DNA of 64,000 nucleotides from Escherichia phage Lw1, in sequence record KC801932; one strand, written 5' to 3'. The notes beneath the pieces are model-generated. The model ran no database searches and was not told where the DNA came from. It worked only from the letters and a program-made list of their open reading frames with translations. The position numbers were made by a program, and so were the translations under genes. Shown here piece after piece: positions 14,545 to 57,264 of the stretch (position 1 is the first letter of the stretch; each line of letters starts with the position of its first letter).

Positions 14545-14726
14545 TTTTCTCGCCCCTCATATATGACGTAGAATAAACCTATAAACCATAATATTGATAC
14601 TACAGCCAACAGGGGTTTGTTGTCAACACCGTTTACATGGAAAACGCACCATCCAAAGAGATACGTTATCACCGCGCACACGATGTATGACATTGCTAAT
14701 ATTGCGTATAGCGCGGTGATGTCCAT
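14541..14726 (-). CDS. small membrane protein
   Basis: 61 aa, two hydrophobic segments. Confidence 0.45.
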   Translation of the reverse strand: MDITALYAILAMSYIVCAVITYLFGWCVFHVNGVDNKPLLAVVSILWFIGLFYVIYEGREK

Positions 14727-15262
14727 TAGTAGTTGTTAGCCCAACGACGCAGGTTTTCAGCCTGTTTCAGAGCATACAGCTTGTAGATGGTTTCCGCATC
14801 CAGCCCCAGCGCGAGGAACTTACACATGAAGAAATGCCACTGGTCGATCAGTTCAAACAGGATTTCCAGTTTATCTTCTTCTTTCATTTCTGCGAATACC
14901 TGGTTACGCAGTGCCTGATGATTTGATTTCCACGGTTTCCAGACACCGGAAGCCGCTTTTGCACCGCGAGACATACCACCCAGAGCGGTGTAAAGTTCGC
15001 GGGTTTCATCTGCGATCGCGTCATCTTGTAGTTTCAGCCAGTCTAGGATCTCACCGCACGTTTTCAGTTCGTTCGGACGTGGAACCCAATGCAGCGTATC
15101 AGACAGGCTTTGTTGTGCATGGTTTTGTAAATCCAGCATGGATTGTAAAGGATCGCCATTACGGGCCAGAACCTTTTGATATTCGGAATCTACAAATTCC
15201 AGATCTTCCGGGTTAACCAGGTGCGCACATGAATTAAATACAGGAGTTTTATCAGTAGTCAT
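14726..15262 (-). CDS. 56: dCTP pyrophosphatase (dCTPase)
   Basis: 178 aa; NSCAHLV, LQSMLDLQ, LGGMSRGAKAASGVWKPWK, LEILFELIDQWHF, KLYALKQAEN parallel T4 gp56. Confidence 0.8.
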   Translation of the reverse strand: MTTDKTPVFNSCAHLVNPEDLEFVDSEYQKVLARNGDPLQSMLDLQNHAQQSLSDTLHWVPRPNELKTCGEILDWLKLQDDAIADETRELYTALGGMSRGAKAASGVWKPWKSNHQALRNQVFAEMKEEDKLEILFELIDQWHFFMCKFLALGLDAETIYKLYALKQAENLRRWANNY

Positions 15263-36712: not shown

Positions 36713-36910
36713 ATGATTATGTTAGAACGAGAATTTGAATTGATGACCTCTCCAGAAGCGGAGAGGTTTTATCTTCATAACGAACTGTTGGAAGAAAAAC
36801 ACGTTGTCACTATGGAAGATGTCAAAGAAGCCTTTAAAGACAATCAGTTAGAGCTAACGCGAATACTGAATAATAAATCGTCTATGTGGTTTCTCGAAAA
36901 AATCTATTGA
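36713..36910 (+). CDS. hypothetical protein
   Basis: 65 aa; followed by terminator. Confidence 0.45.
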   Translation: MIMLEREFELMTSPEAERFYLHNELLEEKHVVTMEDVKEAFKDNQLELTRILNNKSSMWFLEKIY

Positions 36911-36936
36911 CATCAGAACATAAATACCTTAAAGTT

Positions 36937-36969
36937 GCCCGTGTACTGAGTTGCACGGGCTTTTATTTT
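36937..36969 (+). terminator. intrinsic terminator (GCCCGTG...CACGGGC + TTTTATTTT)
   Basis: 7-bp GC stem plus T-run between the 65-aa ORF and the J-domain gene. Confidence 0.7.
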
Positions 36970-36981
36970 GAGGAACGGAAA

Positions 36982-38679
36982 ATGATTAACGAAAAAATGA
37001 CACACCGCGAAGCGTTGGAAATCTTAGGGGCCACGGGTACTGAATCCAAAGCTGAAATGTCCAAACTCTTCAAACGTGCTTCTCTGCGTAATCACCCCGA
37101 TCGTGGTGGTAGCACAGAACTCATGCAAAAAATTAACCAGGCATATGACGTAGTAACGAGAACAAACAGTTCTGGTGAAACTATGATGGATATGCGAGCG
37201 CGTCACGCAGCGAATAAAAAAGCGTGGGAAGAAAAACTGGATGCGTATTTTGTTGTTGCTAAGAACTATTTCAGCACGAAATTTAACGCACAGGAATTCG
37301 CTGAATACTTCACCAAATACACCGGACAGCCGACGACCTTCACACAGGAAGTCAAGAAAGATACAATTTCCGTATCTGCTGTGTTCCGTTTCACTTCTGG
37401 TGATGCTCACTTTGATTTCGCTTTCTACTGCAAGCCAGAAGAAGGTAAAGGTTTGATGTCTCCTGATGCAAGCGCATTGGGTAGTGTTTCTGTCAATACT
37501 CTGGTACTGGTTGGAACCAAAAAACATAAAATGGCAAGCCGTGAATATCAATGGGGCAAAAACCCAGATAAGATCACACCGGAAAGCCTGTTCCCGTCCA
37601 AGAAACTTGCATCAATTTTCAGCCCGACACAAAAGAACCTCAAGTTCAAACGTGCTGACTATATGACTTCTTTCCGCAAGCACTTAGACGCAGAAATCAG
37701 CGGCAATGATATCTATGTTCCTGTAGGCGACCTGAAAGTTCGTTTCTATCGTCATGTAATGATGCGTAAAGGTGCGTATGTGTTTAGTGCGGTATACGAC
37801 CCAGCGGTAAGTAAATTCCGTTCTGCTGCAAACCTTCGCGGAACTATGTTCGAAGACGAAGACGGCGCATGTTTGGATATGATTATCGACACTTTCAAAG
37901 AAATGCAGAAAGCAAAACCGAACGTTAACGGTATTGTCAGTATCATTGACAAGATGAACGCAGAATTCGCAGCGGGACACCGTTCAGCATCTTTCGTCAA
38001 ACGTATGGCACAGCAAGCAGCAGCACCGAAGCCGGAAGAAAAGCCGAAACGCACTGTTAACCGTATCAGCAAAGATGATTATTTCAACGCATTGAAACAA
38101 GCGGGTGCAACATTCCGTAGCAACTACGGTGAGTTTGATAACGGCGCTGGATTGACTTTCCACTTCAAGCGCGAGATCAGCAACCGTAAAGGCTTCTGGA
38201 GTTTCAGCAGTTTTAATTTCATGCACTCCGGTCAACGTCATGTTGAATGGTTGAAAGATATCGACATTGACGAAGACAGCAAAGGTGCAAGTATCGGTCT
38301 GATGGTTGATACTCTGAAACAGTTGCGTGGTGTTGCTGATTGGTATACTGCAAGAAAGATCCTGGAAGCGATGCGCGATAACTTCAAAGCTGGTAAGTTC
38401 TCCGCACCACACGTTAAGAAAGAAGCCGAACAGAAACGCACTGAGGCGCAAGCTAAGGACGAGTTAGGCGCACAGCCTACCAAACCCCATGAAGCGAAGA
38501 AAGAAGCCCCAGCAGTTGATAAGGCTCACGAGGCGCAAATGGCGAAAGAGAAAGCACAGATGAATGCAACTATTCGTTCTATGCTCTCCGCTCTGGTTAA
38601 AGCTGGACGCAAAGACACGCCGGAAGAAATTAAAAAAGCAGTTGATGAAGCAATCGCTCTTTGGCGCTTGAAACACTAA
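36982..38679 (+). CDS. J-domain (DnaJ-like) protein, large, C-terminal region of unknown function
   Basis: 565 aa from ATG after GAGGA; N-terminal J-domain with HPD (EALEILGATGTESKAEMSKLFKRASLRNHPDRGGSTELMQKINQAYDVV); Lys/Ala/Glu-rich tail. Confidence 0.75.
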   Translation: MINEKMTHREALEILGATGTESKAEMSKLFKRASLRNHPDRGGSTELMQKINQAYDVVTRTNSSGETMMDMRARHAANKKAWEEKLDAYFVVAKNYFSTKFNAQEFAEYFTKYTGQPTTFTQEVKKDTISVSAVFRFTSGDAHFDFAFYCKPEEGKGLMSPDASALGSVSVNTLVLVGTKKHKMASREYQWGKNPDKITPESLFPSKKLASIFSPTQKNLKFKRADYMTSFRKHLDAEISGNDIYVPVGDLKVRFYRHVMMRKGAYVFSAVYDPAVSKFRSAANLRGTMFEDEDGACLDMIIDTFKEMQKAKPNVNGIVSIIDKMNAEFAAGHRSASFVKRMAQQAAAPKPEEKPKRTVNRISKDDYFNALKQAGATFRSNYGEFDNGAGLTFHFKREISNRKGFWSFSSFNFMHSGQRHVEWLKDIDIDEDSKGASIGLMVDTLKQLRGVADWYTARKILEAMRDNFKAGKFSAPHVKKEAEQKRTEAQAKDELGAQPTKPHEAKKEAPAVDKAHEAQMAKEKAQMNATIRSMLSALVKAGRKDTPEEIKKAVDEAIALWRLKH

Positions 38680-49271: not shown

Positions 49272-49523
49272 ATGGCTAAATCAATTCAAAGCATTATCGC
49301 TGATACCGTCAGCAAGTCCAAAAAACTGTTCGACAAAGGCGATATCCTGGAAGCTCCGGCACGTATCGACGTGATGGCAGCAATGATCATCGATGCGCAT
49401 CAGGGTAAACTGAAATCTCGTGCCGATGAAGTCATGGCATATGTTGTCCAGTTTGAAGACGTATGCAAATACGCGAAGGGTGTAGACCCGCTGGTACAAG
49501 AGATCTACCGTAAGCAATTCTAA
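49272..49523 (+). CDS. rIII: rIII-like protein
   Basis: 83 aa (T4 rIII 82) directly after gene 31; positional. Confidence 0.5.
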   Translation: MAKSIQSIIADTVSKSKKLFDKGDILEAPARIDVMAAMIIDAHQGKLKSRADEVMAYVVQFEDVCKYAKGVDPLVQEIYRKQF

Positions 49524-49529
49524 AAATTT

Positions 49530-49607
49530 GGCCCCTTAGCTCAATTGGTTAGAGCGAACCCCTCATAAGGGTGTGGTTTCCGGTTCAAGTCACGGAAGGG
49601 GCCACCA
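49530..49607 (+). tRNA. tRNA with CAU anticodon (Met or lysidine-dependent Ile)
   Basis: hand-folded: 7-bp acceptor stem GGCCCCT/AGGGGCC, D-arm GCTC..GAGC, anticodon loop CUCAUAA, T-loop TTCAAGT, encoded CCA; one A-G mismatch in anticodon stem and one G-A in T-stem. Confidence 0.6.
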
Positions 49608-50199: not shown

Positions 50200-50481
50200 A
50201 TGAAGTTCCGTAAATATGATAGTCGCAATCATAACAGGTATGACGAAAGCTGTTTTATACCAATGAGCGCAAAAACATTTAAAGAGCGGTATGGGTATAG
50301 CTTTACTGAATGGAAATCTGAGTTAGATAAAGACGATTATCGTCGTAACTTTAAATTCAGTGAATGTTATTGTGACGATGATCCATATGATCAAGATATA
50401 TACGGGACAACAACACCTATCATTGAACGAACGATTGACGAACTTTATGATTCTGTTTGTTTGTCAGCAGACGAAATTTAA
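50200..50481 (+). CDS. hypothetical protein
   Basis: 93 aa; followed by terminator. Confidence 0.5.
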   Translation: MKFRKYDSRNHNRYDESCFIPMSAKTFKERYGYSFTEWKSELDKDDYRRNFKFSECYCDDDPYDQDIYGTTTPIIERTIDELYDSVCLSADEI

Positions 50482-50486
50482 TCAAC

Positions 50487-50512
50487 AGGCTATCTTCGGA
50501 TAGCCTTTTTTC
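50487..50512 (+). terminator. intrinsic terminator (AGGCTATC-TTCG-GATAGCCT + T6)
   Basis: 8-bp stem, UUCG loop, T-run. Confidence 0.7.
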
Positions 50513-50522
50513 TGGAGAAACT

Positions 50523-51092
50523 ATGCGCTATTTAAAATACGCAAGCTGGATCTTACTGGTTCCGGTAGACATTATCACAGGTATCCTGGCTATCTTGCTG
50601 GCCCCCTTCGTGGTTCCGTTCTATGACGAAAAAGTAGGACATTTGCCTAAAGGGTTCCGATGGATGGAAACCTACGACAACCCGATCGATGGTGACGGTG
50701 GACACATCGAACGCTGGAAAGATATTCGAAAATGGGGCGCTGTCGGTGTCTATGCTCAACGTGTAGCATGGCTATGGCGTAACAAGGCGTATAACTTCGC
50801 GTATCACGTGCTGGGACGTGAGTCTATATCACACACCTACTGGAAAGGAAACAAACTGGTAGACAGCAGTTCAAGCGATCCTAAACATCACGGCTTCCTG
50901 GTGATGTGGAACGAATCTGCATGGGGTGTGTTCGGCTTCGTGCCGTGGCTACGGGTGCATAACATTCAATTCTGTCTGCGTGTCTATTGCGGGTGGAAAC
51001 TGAAATCAGAAGTAAACAACCCAGACAACAAAGACCGTGTGATGCTGGCATTCCACATCAACCCGTTCCGGTTCTATAAGGTAAACACATGA
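50523..51092 (+). CDS. membrane-anchored hypothetical protein
   Basis: 189 aa from ATG (MRYLKYASWILLVPVDIITGILAILLAPFVV). Confidence 0.5.
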   Translation: MRYLKYASWILLVPVDIITGILAILLAPFVVPFYDEKVGHLPKGFRWMETYDNPIDGDGGHIERWKDIRKWGAVGVYAQRVAWLWRNKAYNFAYHVLGRESISHTYWKGNKLVDSSSSDPKHHGFLVMWNESAWGVFGFVPWLRVHNIQFCLRVYCGWKLKSEVNNPDNKDRVMLAFHINPFRFYKVNT

Positions 51093-51367
51093 TCGAAGAT
51101 ATCAAGGGGTATAAACCCCATACCGAAGAAAAGATTACGATTGTAAATCGTATCAAAGCAGTTGAAAATGAAATGGGTGCAATCCTCGATGATCTGGATA
51201 AACGATATTCAGGAGACTATGCGTGTTCAGATCTGGAATCACACACAGAAAAAGAACTTGATGAAATGCTCGAACGCACACATCAAATTCAACTGGCAAA
51301 AGACCGACTGAAAGAAGCCTCTATGTGGGCGTGTCGTGCGGTATTCCAGCCAGAAGAAAAGTATTAA
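51089..51367 (+). CDS. hypothetical protein
   Basis: 92 aa. Confidence 0.5.
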   Translation: MIEDIKGYKPHTEEKITIVNRIKAVENEMGAILDDLDKRYSGDYACSDLESHTEKELDEMLERTHQIQLAKDRLKEASMWACRAVFQPEEKY

Positions 51368-51371
51368 AACC

Positions 51372-51402
51372 AAGCCGTTGCCGAAAGGTAGCGGCTTTTT
51401 TC
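51372..51402 (+). terminator. intrinsic terminator (11-bp stem, GAAA loop, T-run)
   Basis: AAGCCGTTGCC-GAAA-GGTAGCGGCTT followed by TTTTTTCGTTTTT. Confidence 0.7.
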
Positions 51403-51422
51403 GTTTTTATGAAAAATAATGC

Positions 51423-51451
51423 TTGCATCAAATACGGCTTTCTTGTATCTT
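51423..51451 (+). promoter_or_regulatory. sigma70-like promoter (-35 TTGCAT, 17-bp spacer, -10 TATCTT)
   Basis: read directly; upstream TGCTTG resembles a MotA box; about 40 nt before the GAGGA/ATG of the 51493 gene. Confidence 0.45.
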
Positions 51452-51492
51452 TAACCACGTAGGCAAGACAACTTAACTTTGAGGATGACATT

Positions 51493-51783
51493 ATGAAAAC
51501 TTACAACATGAAAGACCTGGTTTGCTTCAAAACTCGCCGTGAAGCCCGTGCGTATGTTTTGGCGGCTGGTAAGAATACCTCTGCTGTAATCGACCTGGGT
51601 ACTGATAAAGAGGTTGGTGCTCGTTGGGCCGCTGTTGTGGTTATCGCTGTCCCTGTTACCCCTGCTAAAACTCTGGTTCTGGGTGCTCGCAACAGCGAAA
51701 CTCTGAACACCAGCACTTGCAATAACAGAGGCGTTCATAGTGTCAAAGTGTTCAAACGTCGCAGCATTGGCGCGAGGGTTTAA
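51493..51783 (+). CDS. small basic protein with strongly optimized codon usage (internal-protein-like candidate)
   Basis: 96 aa beginning MKTY; codons almost all CTG/CGT/GGT/GCT/GTT/AAA/GAA, like gp32; GAGGA SD. Confidence 0.55.
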   Translation: MKTYNMKDLVCFKTRREARAYVLAAGKNTSAVIDLGTDKEVGARWAAVVVIAVPVTPAKTLVLGARNSETLNTSTCNNRGVHSVKVFKRRSIGARV

Positions 51784-52706: not shown

Positions 52707-53147
52707 GTGGACATTGGTTCGGGTAGTCAATATCCATCATGTGCATTGAGCAACTTCGCCCCGCATCCGTTCACTTTTGACGGGGTAGAATGTGCATCAA
52801 TGGAGGGTTTTTTACAAAGCCTGAAATACAGCAACCCAGATATGCAAGCGCATGTGTGTACTCTGGTAGGTAAAGCCGCCAAGTTCAAAGGCAAGAAAAA
52901 GAAATGGTATCGCGATCAGACCCTATACTGGAAAGGTACACCGATTCACCGTGAGTCCGAAGCGTATCAGATTCTTATCGAAAACGCGTACAATGCTCTT
53001 TTCCTGAATGACGGGTTTCGCCGTGCGTTGAAAGCAACCGGAAAAAGCACCTTGACTCATTCAATGGGAAAGAATAAGATGAATGAAACAGTGCTCACCG
53101 AACGTGAGTTTGTTCGAAATTTAACCCGACTAAGGGATCTGCTATGA
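52707..53147 (+). CDS. NADAR-domain protein (YbiA-like, DUF1768)
   Basis: 146 aa; N-terminal YPSCALSNFAPHPFTFDGVECASMEGFLQSLKY fits the NADAR signature; GTG start. Confidence 0.7.
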   Translation: MDIGSGSQYPSCALSNFAPHPFTFDGVECASMEGFLQSLKYSNPDMQAHVCTLVGKAAKFKGKKKKWYRDQTLYWKGTPIHRESEAYQILIENAYNALFLNDGFRRALKATGKSTLTHSMGKNKMNETVLTEREFVRNLTRLRDLL

Positions 53148-56596: not shown

Positions 56597-56887
56597 ATGA
56601 AAAATAAAGAATACGACCCAGCAGAAATTAAAGAACGGTTATCAGTAGCAAGGAGATTCCTTGAATCTATCGATCCAGATAAACTTGGAAAACTCCCAGA
56701 CACGATTTGTTTAAATTGTGGTCGCTGTGTGTTGGTTGGTAAATGTTGCGACAACCCAAACATTGTCGTCATGGAACGGAAAGAAGTTTCGCCGGAAGTG
56801 TGGGATAAGATTCAGGAAATCATCAAAAACCCTCCAGAACCAACGAAACGTTTACGAGAACTTATGAGCAAGGAATACACGTTATGA
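56597..56887 (+). CDS. hypothetical Cys-rich protein
   Basis: 96 aa; CLNCGRCVLVGKCC cluster; AAGGAG before ATG. Confidence 0.5.
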   Translation: MKNKEYDPAEIKERLSVARRFLESIDPDKLGKLPDTICLNCGRCVLVGKCCDNPNIVVMERKEVSPEVWDKIQEIIKNPPEPTKRLRELMSKEYTL

Positions 56888-57264
56888 AAAATGAACCAAG
56901 CAAGACTGTACGCCTTATCCGTTGGGAAGGCAACGAACTCCGTTATGAAGACGGCGACCGCGAATTCGTTCATGAAATGCTGGCGCATAATCTGGGATTG
57001 AAAAACGCTAACCTGGTGCAGATGCAGCAGACAGCAGATCCTGACACATGGCAATGTGTTATTGTTGAACTGAATCCTAACAAGGAATACACGGAAGATG
57101 AACTCTTTGTGCTTGTCCAGGACGTTCCAGCGCGTCAGAAATGTTTTATGATAGACATGCCACGGGAAAACTACGAGAACATCAAAAAAGCCCGTCAGAA
57201 GCCCAAAAACAACGTATTCGATCTGTTTATGGGCTATCATGAAGAACCACAAACAACGGCCTAA
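56884..57264 (+). CDS. hypothetical protein
   Basis: 126 aa. Confidence 0.5.
   Translation: MKNEPSKTVRLIRWEGNELRYEDGDREFVHEMLAHNLGLKNANLVQMQQTADPDTWQCVIVELNPNKEYTEDELFVLVQDVPARQKCFMIDMPRENYENIKKARQKPKNNVFDLFMGYHEEPQTTA

What the first reader, a model, noticed from the sequence alone, without database searches (positions are those of the whole stretch)
51423..51783. Small basic protein with extreme codon optimisation behind a strong promoter: internal-protein-like candidate
The 96-aa ORF begins MKTY, as T4 internal proteins do. Its codon usage is almost entirely host high-expression codons, comparable to gp32 and unlike the surrounding small ORFs. It follows an intrinsic terminator and a TTGCAT-17-TATCTT promoter with GAGGA SD. 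Both antisense frames are also open, which fits codon bias rather than real antisense genes. It may be an abundant injected or nucleoid-associated protein with anti-restriction function.
Basis: partly seen in the sequence, partly recalled or inferred. Interest (0 to 1): 0.5.

Follow-up and report, generated by a model that had tools for sequence, protein, structure and literature searches.

The report
Abundant small basic early phage protein
This is a real, conserved 96-residue basic protein gene of an RB43-like phage that is built for very high early expression. It has none of the testable hallmarks of a packaged internal head protein, and its function is unknown apart from a weak hint that its tail imitates the NusA-binding segment of host initiation factor IF2.

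Summary
The ORF at 51493-51783 is a genuine protein gene. dN/dS is 0.13-0.45, and about 40 homologue clusters were found, nearly all in RB43-like and KP15-like T4-type phages.

- A strong terminator lies upstream.
- The promoter sits where relatives carry near-consensus sigma-70 promoters.
- The ribosome-binding region is unstructured.
- Codon adaptation equals that of gp32 and gp45 and exceeds that of all neighbouring genes.

Three descriptions are overstated: "strong promoter", "almost entirely optimal codons" and "both antisense frames open".

The internal-protein reading fails every testable criterion:
- Only MKTY is shared with the T4 capsid-targeting sequence.
- There is no protease site.
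- The N-terminus varies among close homologues and is missing in distant ones.
- There is no late promoter.

The protein has pI 10.5 and three parts: a small beta-alpha-beta-beta domain weakly related to DUF2483, a Pro/Val/Thr linker of variable length, and a beta-hairpin with a basic tail. That tail gives repeated sub-threshold matches to the IF2-associated region. In E. coli IF2, this is the segment reported to contact NusA.

Best reading: an abundant early cytoplasmic protein that binds host gene-expression machinery or nucleic acid. The function is unproven.

The parts
51372..51407 (+). Intrinsic terminator ending the upstream Acb2 (Vs.4-like) transcription unit: stem-loop 51372-51397, then a T-run.
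   Evidence: 11 pairs, 6 of them G-C.: -18.8 kcal/mol, z = -4.4; conserved in relatives, and replaced by a different hairpin at the same place in L009.
51423..51428 (+). -35 hexamer TTGCAT, preceded by an A/T-rich stretch at 51403-51419.
   Evidence: it aligns with TTGACT in the KP15-like locus and TTGACC in L009. It matches the consensus at only 3 of 6 positions.
51446..51451 (+). -10 hexamer TATCTT, with a 17-nt spacer from the -35.
   Evidence: it aligns with TATAGT and GATAAT in relatives. One search did not report this pair (7 of 12 positions).
51458..51469 (+). Conserved block CGTAGGCAAGAC at the predicted 5' end of the mRNA. Its role is unknown.
   Evidence: CGTAG[G/A]CAAGA is invariant across Pseudotevenvirus, KP15-like and L009 loci while the flanks diverge. 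Searches give no support for a conserved structure.
51473..51485 (+). Translation-initiation region. TTAACTTTG matches 8 of 9 positions of the T7 gene 10 'epsilon' enhancer TTAACTTTA (from memory). It overlaps the Shine-Dalgarno GAGGA at 51481-51485.
   Evidence: the region folds less well than shuffles (z = +1.36), so it is open. The motif is not enriched in the window (3 found against 1.7 expected), so only its position is suggestive.
51493..51783 (+). Coding sequence: 96 aa, 10.4 kDa, pI 10.5; member of phrog_7596.
   Evidence: E = 5e-59; dN/dS 0.13-0.45.
51517..51636 (+). N-terminal beta-alpha-beta-beta domain, residues 9-48. Invariant residues: F12, T14, R15, A18, R19, D34, G42, R44, W45.
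   Evidence: alignment. AF2 pLDDT 73-86; shared with phrog_8127 and phrog_6265; a distant member matches DUF2483 at E = 1e-3.
51637..51666 (+). Variable Pro/Val/Thr-rich linker, residues 49-58.
   Evidence: insertions and deletions, and PVTPV / PVNPV repeat expansions in homologues; pLDDT below 50 at residues 52-54.
51667..51780 (+). C-terminal module, residues 59-96: KTLVLG...ETLNT...G.HSVKVFKRRS. Predicted beta-hairpin (69-73 and 82-86) plus a basic tail. Resembles the IF2-associated region.
   Evidence: hairpin at pLDDT about 55-60. Pfam IF2_assoc at E = 0.039 and 0.006 for two members; the profile's only hit on E. coli IF2 is residues 59-90; hhalign P = 0.0022; pI 11.8.

Best explanation
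**Shown**
- This is a conserved protein-coding gene.
- It is the first gene of its own transcription unit in the early-gene region of an RB43-like (Pseudotevenvirus) phage.
- Its signals and codon usage are those of the phage's most heavily expressed genes.

**Inferred**
- The product is made early, in amounts comparable to gp32 or gp45, and acts in the infected cytoplasm as a stoichiometric binder of an abundant, negatively charged host target.
- Its build suggests two binding modules on a flexible tether: a small Arg/Trp-studded beta-alpha-beta-beta domain, a linker of variable length, and a beta-hairpin with a KKR tail.

**Committed mechanism, speculative (about 0.2 on its own)**
- The C-terminal hairpin imitates residues 57-90 of host IF2-alpha. 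With the N1 domain, that segment contacts NusA KH2-AR1 (PMC12297416).
- The protein would therefore dock on NusA, or on the ribosome/RNA interface that IF2 domain I serves, and redirect the host gene-expression machinery to the phage.
- The broader claim, that it is an abundant early binder of host gene-expression machinery or RNA, is what the confidence figure refers to.
For: **Real gene**
- dN/dS is 0.13-0.45 over dS up to 1.8.
- There are 41 homologue clusters, all small proteins (85-134 aa) with the same two-part plan.

**High early expression**
- A terminator lies upstream.
- The promoter position is conserved and reads as near-consensus in relatives and in a distant homologue.
- The translation-initiation region is open.
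- CAI is 0.525 and the optimal-codon fraction is 0.68, equal to gp32 and gp45 and above all neighbours. The excess over a synonymous-resampling null is z = 3.46.
- The bias is conserved in homologues.
- The gene sits among early genes (pseT, cd, gene 31, 30.3, ligase), all on the same strand.

**Basic, modular build**
- pI is 10.5 overall and 11.8 for the C-terminal part.
- The AF2 domain plan is, and linker length varies by insertions and deletions.

**IF2 lead**
- IF2_assoc is the only Pfam family hit by more than one member, at E = 0.006 and 0.039.
- The family's C-terminal profile places its single match on E. coli IF2 at residues 59-90 of 890.
- hhalign aligns 34 columns end to end with P = 0.0022.
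- PMC12297416 reports that IF2 domain I binds NusA. The AlphaFold 3 model there puts N1 and 'two beta-strands (57-90 aa)' against KH2-AR1, and crosslinks were obtained from positions 13, 50 and 88.
- The same paper calls both IF2 and NusA highly abundant, which would explain a need for very high expression.
Against: - **No direct data:** I found no expression, localisation or binding data for any family member.
- **The IF2 similarity is below every formal threshold.**
  - The window protein itself has no Pfam hit.
  - The best member scores 14.6 bits against a 24-bit cut-off.
  - BLASTP against IF2 finds nothing.
  - hhalign probability is 13%, and 2.6% with full-length profiles.
  - The profile's score on IF2 is trivial in database terms: E = 0.024 for a single sequence.
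  - The exhaustive profile search of 1.8 billion proteins returned no IF2.
- **The N-terminal domain shows no similarity to the IF2 N1 domain**.
- **The C-terminal hairpin is a low-confidence prediction,** with pLDDT about 55-60.
- **One clue points to DNA instead.** The weak DUF2483 link leads to Staphylococcus phage genes that sit beside recombination genes (PMC8093625).
Confidence: 0.4

Rival explanations
1. An abundant DNA-binding protein. It would coat or compact host or phage DNA, as a nucleoid-associated, histone-like or DNA-end-binding factor, and has nothing to do with IF2 or NusA.
For: - The protein has pI 10.5 and invariant Arg and Trp residues in the N-terminal domain.
- Very high expression suits a DNA-coating role.
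- The N-terminal domain of a distant member matches DUF2483 at E = 1e-3. In Staphylococcus phages that family sits upstream of single-strand-annealing and SSB genes, in the position otherwise held by Mu Gam-like DNA-binding proteins (PMC8093625).
Against: - The DUF2483 match is below Pfam's cut-off (19.6 against 27 bits) and comes from one distant member only. The window protein has no hit.
- No known DNA-binding fold or motif was detected.
- The gene is not next to replication or recombination genes in these phages.
Confidence: 0.25
2. An anti-defence protein: a stoichiometric inhibitor or sponge directed at a host immune system. It would be placed next to the anti-CBASS sponge gene Acb2 as part of an anti-defence cluster.
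For: - The upstream gene is an Acb2/Tad1-hairpin protein (PF24729, E = 2e-17).
- The order Vs.6, Vs.4 (Acb2), terminator, this gene is conserved in KP15.
- Stoichiometric inhibitors need high expression.
- The family is patchy among T4-like phages, as accessory genes usually are.
Against: - A terminator and a separate promoter divide the two genes.
- Acb2 itself is not codon-optimised: CAI 0.34, optimal-codon fraction 0.44.
- In Morganella phage Mm5 and in metagenomic homologues, the Pfam record for the called neighbouring genes lists no Acb2/Tad1 family.
- There is no similarity to any known anti-defence family in Pfam or PHROGs.
- A pI of 10.5 is unlike Acb2-type sponges as I recall them.
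Confidence: 0.13
3. One reading: an internal head protein. It would be targeted to the prohead by an MKTY... capsid-targeting sequence, cleaved by the prohead protease, injected with the DNA, and possibly act against restriction.
For: - The protein starts with MKTY, the only MKT start among 94 ORFs in the window.
- It is small, basic and codon-optimised, as T4 internal proteins are.
- From memory, in T4 the Acb2 gene vs.4 lies a few genes upstream of ipII and ipIII.
Against: - Only 4 of the 10 targeting-sequence residues match.
- There is no L/I-x-E cleavage site; the window protein has M-K-D.
- The N-terminus is variable in close homologues and missing in distant ones.
- The promoter is of the early sigma-70 type and there is no TATAAATA.
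- The canonical targeting sequence was not found in the RB43 or CfP1 contigs.
- The conserved part of the protein is a folded domain that begins at residue 9.
Confidence: 0.04
4. The codon bias does not reflect expression. It would be a leftover of recent capture from a highly expressed host gene, or a side effect of amino-acid composition.
For: - The gene's G+C content is 49.5% against 43.3% for the window.
- The protein is rich in Ala, Val, Gly, Thr and Arg. For these amino acids the T-ending codons favoured in highly expressed host genes are also among the commoner codons in the phage.
Against: - After controlling for amino-acid sequence and phage codon usage, the excess remains at z = 3.46. 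It includes the C-ending two-fold codons and CTG (5 of 6 Leu), which run against the phage's general preference.
- GC3 is ordinary at 0.46.
- No bacterial homologue was found among 5.8 billion or 1.8 billion proteins.
- The bias persists across homologues separated by dS above 1.
Confidence: 0.03

Closest known systems
T4 internal proteins IPI, IPII and IPIII (capsid-targeted, protease-processed, injected)
   Same: Small, basic, codon-optimised, and starts with MKTY.
   Different: - The rest of the targeting sequence and the L/I-x-E protease site are absent.
- The N-terminus is not conserved within the family.
- The promoter is of the early type.
- The conserved core is a folded domain plus a hairpin.
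-.
IF2-associated region (Pfam PF08364), residues about 57-90 of E. coli IF2-alpha domain I, reported to contact NusA KH2-AR1 together with the N1 domain (PMC12297416)
   Same: - Same length and the same pattern: [KT]L.L, then TL, then a Gly-rich turn, then V.[VI].V, then +K+R[ST][FY].
- Predicted as two beta-strands.
- Follows a small alpha/beta domain and a flexible linker.
- It is the only Pfam family with repeated sub-threshold hits.
-.
   Different: - All scores are below threshold, with 23-26% identity to the host segment.
- The N-terminal domains are unrelated.
- The protein is free-standing rather than part of IF2.
-.
DUF2483 (Pfam PF10656), small Staphylococcus phage proteins encoded upstream of single-strand-annealing and SSB genes
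   Same: A small phage protein of similar size. The N-terminal domain of distant member P0039 matches it at E = 1e-3. Function unknown.
   Different: The match is below the cut-off and the window protein has no hit. The genomic context is different, and DUF2483 has no C-terminal hairpin module that I could see.
PhiKZ014 of Pseudomonas phage PhiKZ, an abundant early protein that binds the host ribosome (from memory, Gerovac et al. 2024; not checked here)
   Same: A precedent for a small, very abundant, immediately expressed phage protein whose target is the translation apparatus.
   Different: I know of no sequence relation and did not test for one. This is an analogy in logic only.
T7 gene 10 leader (Shine-Dalgarno plus 'epsilon' enhancer TTAACTTTA; from memory, Olins & Rangwala 1989)
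   Same: TTAACTTTG lies directly upstream of, and overlaps, the Shine-Dalgarno sequence in an unstructured leader.
   Different: It matches 8 of 9 positions. The motif is not enriched in the window and is only partly conserved in relatives. Function untested.

Membership tests
T4-type internal proteins (IPI/IPII/IPIII) | N-terminal 10-residue capsid-targeting sequence MKTYQEFIAE (from memory) | tested here: not met
   The window protein reads MKTYNMKDLV, which shares 4 of 10 residues. Homologues read MKRSYNMNEL, MKAYNMKDL and MKTTYAAKDL. Distant homologues have no extension at all.
T4-type internal proteins (IPI/IPII/IPIII) | Prohead-protease (gp21) cleavage site L/I-x-E at the end of the targeting sequence | tested here: not met
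   Residues 6-8 are M-K-D in the window protein. Some homologues have Glu there (M-K-E, M-N-E, M-S-E), but P3 is Met and the site is not conserved.
T4-type internal proteins (IPI/IPII/IPIII) | Expression at the time of prohead assembly (late promoter TATAAATA) | tested here: not met
   There is no TATAAATA upstream, and none in the whole window. The upstream site is a sigma-70-type promoter, conserved by position. A second, unrecognised late signal cannot be excluded.
T4-type internal proteins (IPI/IPII/IPIII) | Presence in the mature virion and injection with the DNA | not testable with these tools
   No virion proteome of a phage carrying this gene was found.
IF2_assoc (Pfam PF08364) | Score at or above Pfam's gathering threshold (24 bits) | tested here: not met
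   The window protein has no hit even at E <= 10. The only bit score printed is 14.6 bits for full-length P0031 (E = 0.039). Scanning the C-terminal segments alone, two of 20 members hit, with best E = 0.006.
IF2_assoc (Pfam PF08364) | Profile-level similarity to the enterobacterial IF2 segment 55-92 | tested here: inconclusive
   hhalign on the C-terminal profiles: 34 columns, P = 0.0022, probability 13%. With full-length profiles: P = 0.018, probability 2.6%. The family's HMM places its only match on IF2 residues 59-90. The IF2 alignment had little diversity.
IF2_assoc (Pfam PF08364) | Two beta-strands following a small N-terminal domain and a flexible linker (IF2 domain I plan, PMC12297416) | tested here: inconclusive
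   AF2 predicts strands 69-73 and 82-86 after a disordered linker, but at pLDDT about 55-60. The N-terminal domain is not similar to IF2 N1.
IF2_assoc (Pfam PF08364) | Binding to NusA KH2-AR1 | not testable with these tools
   No complex prediction or experiment was available.
DUF2483 (Pfam PF10656) | Score at or above the gathering threshold (27 bits) | tested here: not met
   The window protein has no hit. Distant member P0039 scores 19.6 bits, E = 1e-3.
phrog_7596 (uncharacterised phage protein family) | Full-length profile match | tested here: met
   E = 5.3e-59 over residues 1-95 of the 96-position profile.
Sigma-70-dependent early transcription unit | -35 and -10 hexamers with 16-18 nt spacing, downstream of a terminator | tested here: inconclusive
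   The window hexamers match at 7 of 12 positions and the scan did not report them. The same position holds 10 of 12 matching hexamers in KP15-like and L009 loci, and 11 of 12 in L016. The terminator is confirmed. The transcription start is not mapped.

The most novel reading that the evidence does not exclude
The C-terminal hairpin is a viral imitation, or a captured and diverged copy, of the IF2-alpha domain I element (residues 57-90) that docks on NusA KH2-AR1. By flooding the cell with it immediately after infection, the phage would displace IF2-alpha from NusA on RNA polymerase. That would break the host's early coupling of transcription and translation, or would capture NusA for phage transcripts. 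The N-terminal domain would supply a second contact. NusA AR1 is already known as a phage target (lambda N; from memory).
Probability: 0.15. Interest if true: 0.8.

Novelty: new member of a known kind. Interest (0 to 1): 0.35.

Why it matters
Small early genes of T4-like phages are mostly unannotated. This one stands out because the phage invests in it as heavily as in gp32 and gp45, which implies a stoichiometric job against an abundant host target.

It is present in about 175 sequenced Klebsiella, Enterobacter, Cronobacter and Citrobacter phages, many of them isolated on clinical multidrug-resistant strains. An abundant host-takeover factor in them is therefore of practical interest.

If the IF2/NusA imitation is real, it would be the first phage factor aimed at the newly described IF2-NusA bridge between transcription and translation. 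It would also give a natural tool for probing that bridge.

If the similarity is only chance, the result is still useful. The internal-protein label can be dropped, and the gene can be listed as a high-priority unknown with clear experiments.

Tried and rejected
**Similarity searches that found nothing**
- BLASTP of the protein against E. coli IF2 residues 1-161 gave no alignment.
- PDB sequence searches with the full-length and C-terminal profiles gave nothing usable. The best hit was a eukaryotic S20 ribosomal protein at E = 0.3.
- NCBIfam and Rfam gave nothing.

**Structure**
- The first AF2 run, on a shallow alignment, was poor (pLDDT 43). Adding distant homologues raised it to 67.7.
- The afdb50 library was not available.

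**Readings rejected**
- A structured RNA or operator in the leader: consensus energy -1.6 kcal/mol with no covariation, and the leader folds less well than shuffles.
- A MotA-box reading of TGCTTGCA at 51420: it lies about 19 nt from the -10 element, whereas T4 middle promoters use 11-13 nt (from memory).
- Capture from the host as the cause of the codon bias: GC3 is ordinary and there is no bacterial homologue.
- The RB43 frameshift as a sign that the gene is dispensable: the second RB43 isolate has the gene intact.
- A second N-domain-like ORF at 56891-57001 (E = 3e-4): it lies out of frame inside a 126-aa ORF and lacks the invariant residues.

**Attempts that did not deliver**
- Widening the IF2 alignment failed. 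The protein search and the genome scan returned only enterobacterial copies, nearly identical across the IF2-associated segment (genome-scan hits at least 95% identical).
- Literature searches for virion proteomics or transcriptomics of carrier phages found none. The one T4-like Klebsiella virion proteome found is from Jiaodavirus phages, a genus in which my searches found no copy of the gene.
- Literature searches for IF2_assoc / PF08364 found nothing.
Full report
**Where the window comes from.** The window is from a Pseudotevenvirus (RB43-like T4-type phage). The 24 kb around the finding is 88-90% identical to Citrobacter phages IME-CF2, CfP1 and Miller. The protein itself is identical in Buttiauxella phage GuL6 (GuL6_081) and identical over 95 of its 96 residues in Miller and CfP1. 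Every record annotates it as hypothetical.

**The observation: what holds.**
- The ORF is at 51493-51783 (+), 96 aa, and begins MKTYNMKDLV. It is 10.4 kDa with pI 10.5.
- The upstream gene (51089-51367) is an Acb2/Tad1-hairpin protein, the T4 Vs.4 homologue (the KP15 annotation is).
- That gene is followed by a strong intrinsic terminator at 51372-51397: 11 pairs, -18.8 kcal/mol, z = -4.4.
GAGGA lies 7 nt before the ATG.

**The promoter.**
- The hexamers match the sigma-70 consensus at only 7 of 12 positions, and the scan did not list them.
- An alignment of the intergenic region across relatives shows the same two positions occupied by TTGACT-17-TATAGT in the KP15-like locus and TTGACC-17-GATAAT in L009. 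The terminator is kept, in L009 as a different hairpin.
- A distant metagenomic homologue has TTGACA-17-GATAAT in front of it.
- A private promoter is therefore a property of the family. "Strong" is not shown for this window.

**The leader.**
- It is less structured than shuffled sequence (z = +1.36).
- It carries TTAACTTTG against the Shine-Dalgarno sequence. This matches 8 of 9 positions of the T7 gene 10 epsilon enhancer as I remember it.
- A 12-nt block, CGTAGGCAAGAC, at the predicted 5' end of the mRNA is invariant across relatives. I cannot explain it.

**Codon usage.**
That is 4th of 94 ORFs in the window (mean 0.32, sd 0.094).
- The ORFs ranked above it include gp45 (0.581) and gp32 (0.533), identified by Pfam. 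These serve as positive controls for the method.
- I resampled synonymous codons from the window's own usage while keeping the amino-acid sequence fixed. The expected CAI is 0.324, so the excess is z = 3.46.
- The observed-to-expected ratio is 1.62, matching gp45 (1.63) and above gp32 (1.54).
- The fraction of optimal codons is 0.68, against 0.63 for gp32, 0.67 for gp45 and 0.41-0.53 for the neighbours.
- The bias is concentrated in codons 2-72 (CAI 0.64). The last 24 codons are ordinary (0.30) and include AGA and AGG.
- The bias is kept in homologues (CAI 0.46-0.59).

**Antisense ORFs.** The long antisense ORFs (95 and 73 aa) are not unusual. Synonymous reshuffles leave antisense frames this open with P = 0.37-0.63.

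**It is a real protein gene.**
- Pairwise dN/dS is 0.13-0.45 while dS reaches 1.8.
- A word-indexed search of 5.8 billion proteins found 29 clusters, then 41 with a profile.
- An exhaustive profile search of 1.8 billion representatives added only about seven real distant relatives. All are 85-134 aa with the same plan.
- In the phage collection the gene occurs in 176 records: Pseudotevenvirus, Slopekvirus (KP15_75), Pectobacterium phage POP12 and Morganella phage Mm5.
- No match was found in T4 itself.
- The N-terminal domain alone reaches further. It is found in Cronobacter phages of about 145 kb (GAP31, Csp-D17), which I take to be rV5-like, in Erwinia and Escherichia jumbo phages, and in Vibrio phages.

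**Anatomy.**
- Residues 9-48 form a beta-alpha-beta-beta domain (AF2 pLDDT 73-86). The invariant residues are F12, T14, R15, A18, R19, D34, G42, R44 and W45.
- Residues 49-58 are a Pro/Val/Thr linker that varies in length, including PVTPV and PVNPV repeat expansions.
- Residues 59-96 carry the pattern KTLVLG..R..ETL.T......G.H.V.V..KRS. AF2 predicts a hairpin (69-73 and 82-86, pLDDT about 55-60) followed by a basic tail. The pI of this part is 11.8.

**The internal-protein idea.** T4 internal proteins are defined by three things, all from memory: the targeting sequence MKTYQEFIAE, cleavage by the prohead protease after L/I-x-E, and presence in the virion.
- Only MKTY is shared.
- Residues 6-8 are M-K-D.
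- Close homologues begin MKRSY, MKAY or MKTTY.
- In distant homologues the domain starts at residue 2-5.
- There is no late promoter here. TATAAATA does not occur anywhere in the 64 kb.
- A degenerate pattern for MKTYQEFIAE matched only 168-175 kb T4-type contigs and one 14.4-kb fragment in the viral collection. It did not match the RB43 or CfP1 contigs that carry this gene.
- MK starts are common, 14 of 94 ORFs, so a single MKTY is weak evidence.
- I found no virion proteome for any carrier phage.
- I put this reading at about 4%.

**What it might do: the general argument.** A protein made at gp32/gp45 level from the first minutes, with pI 10.5 and two modules on a tether, is most simply a stoichiometric binder of something abundant and negatively charged.

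**What it might do: two weak sequence clues.**
- *First clue: the C-terminal module and IF2.*
  - IF2_assoc (PF08364) is the only Pfam family hit by more than one member: E = 0.039 for full-length P0031, and 0.006 when the C-terminal segments were scanned alone.
  - I checked the E. coli infB sequence directly. The family's C-terminal HMM places its only match on IF2 residues 59-90 of 890.
  - hhalign against enterobacterial IF2 segments aligns 34 columns with P = 0.0022, probability 13%.
  - With full-length profiles only this segment aligns (P = 0.018), and the N-terminal domains are unrelated.
  - These numbers do not establish homology. The window protein itself has no Pfam hit, BLASTP finds nothing, and the IF2 sequences I could fetch were nearly identical across this segment.
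- *Why the IF2 lead is still worth recording.*
  - A 2025 study reports that IF2-alpha domain I binds NusA.
  - Its AlphaFold 3 model places the N1 domain and "two beta-strands (57-90 aa)" against NusA KH2-AR1.
  - Crosslinks were obtained from positions 13, 50 and 88.
  - It describes both proteins as highly abundant (PMC12297416).
  - The plan of small domain, flexible linker and two strands is the plan seen here.
- *Second clue: the N-terminal domain and DUF2483.*
  - The N-terminal domain of distant member P0039 matches DUF2483 at E = 1e-3.
  - In Staphylococcus phages, DUF2483 genes sit upstream of annealing-protein and SSB genes, where Mu Gam-like genes otherwise sit (PMC8093625).
  - That points towards DNA instead.

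**Weighing the readings.**

| Reading | Probability |
|---|---|
| Abundant early binder of host gene-expression machinery or RNA | 0.40 |
| DNA-coating or DNA-end protein | 0.25 |
| Anti-defence factor by association with Acb2 | 0.13 |
| Internal head protein | 0.04 |
| Codon bias unrelated to expression | 0.03 |

- The remaining 0.15 is something not considered here.
- Within the first row, the specific IF2/NusA imitation is about 0.15-0.2.
- Against the anti-defence reading: the two genes are separated by a terminator and a promoter, Acb2 is not codon-optimised, and the Pfam record for the genes next to the distant homologues lists no Acb2/Tad1 family.

**Novelty and interest.** The family (phrog_7596) is catalogued but uncharacterised. 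As an abundant early accessory protein it belongs to a known kind, and its mechanism is open. Interest is moderate. The expression signals are unusually clear and the gene is widespread in Klebsiella and Enterobacter phages, but nothing here is established beyond "real, early, abundant, basic".

Noticed in passing
L003 about 2925-2985 (RB43, NC_007023) and L110 about 333-400 (RB43-GVA, HE981739); corresponds to window 51470-51497: Both RB43 records carry a 29-nt tandem duplication of this gene's ribosome-binding site and start codon (CAACTTAACTTTGAGGATGACATTATGAA, twice). It creates a 10-codon leader ORF whose TGA overlaps the real ATG. NC_007023 also lacks one T at codon 11, which is a frameshift. 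RB43-GVA does not, so the frameshift is a stock mutation or a sequencing error.
   Followed up: partly
window 49530-49607 (+): ARAGORN calls a tRNA with anticodon CAT as Met. G1-C72 is paired, so it is not an initiator tRNA. Its acceptor stem and 5' end look like E. coli ileX as I remember it, so it may be a tRNA-Ile2 that reads AUA. The Rfam gathering search gave no hit here, which is odd.
   Followed up: partly
window 49272-49523 (+): An 83-aa ORF directly after the gene 31 co-chaperonin has the second-highest CAI in the window (0.566, z = 2.95). It matches no Pfam or NCBIfam family. It is another small gene that looks highly expressed.
   Followed up: no
window 51458-51469 (+): The 12-nt block CGTAGGCAAGAC at the predicted 5' end of the mRNA is invariant across Pseudotevenvirus, KP15-like and L009 loci while its flanks diverge. 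No conserved structure was found. Its role is unknown.
   Followed up: partly
window 56891-57001 (+), inside ORF 56884-57264: A 36-aa out-of-frame ORF (MNQARLYALSVGKATNSVMK...) matches the N-domain profile at E = 3e-4 among the window's six-frame fragments. It lacks F12, T14, R15, D34, G42 and R44. It is probably chance, or possibly a decayed relic.
   Followed up: partly
whole window: The T4 late-promoter motif TATAAATA does not occur at all in 64 kb, on either strand. Shuffles give about 3.
   Followed up: no
window 51089-51367 (+) and 50457-51092 (+): The upstream neighbours are an Acb2/Tad1-hairpin protein (an anti-CBASS sponge family, E = 2e-17) and a DUF7338 protein (E = 1e-64). A gp30.3-like gene lies downstream at 52707-53147.
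   Followed up: no
window 14726-15262 (-) and 36886-38679 (+): A 178-aa ORF with CAI 0.513 and no Pfam family. Also a 597-aa ORF with CAI 0.449 and a sub-threshold DnaJ J-domain match (24.9 bits against a 27.8-bit cut-off).
   Followed up: no
homologues P0019 and P0026 (alignment A1): The linker between the two modules grows by short tandem peptide repeats: PVTPVTPV and PVNPVNPV. The two modules therefore tolerate, or exploit, a variable spacing.
   Followed up: no
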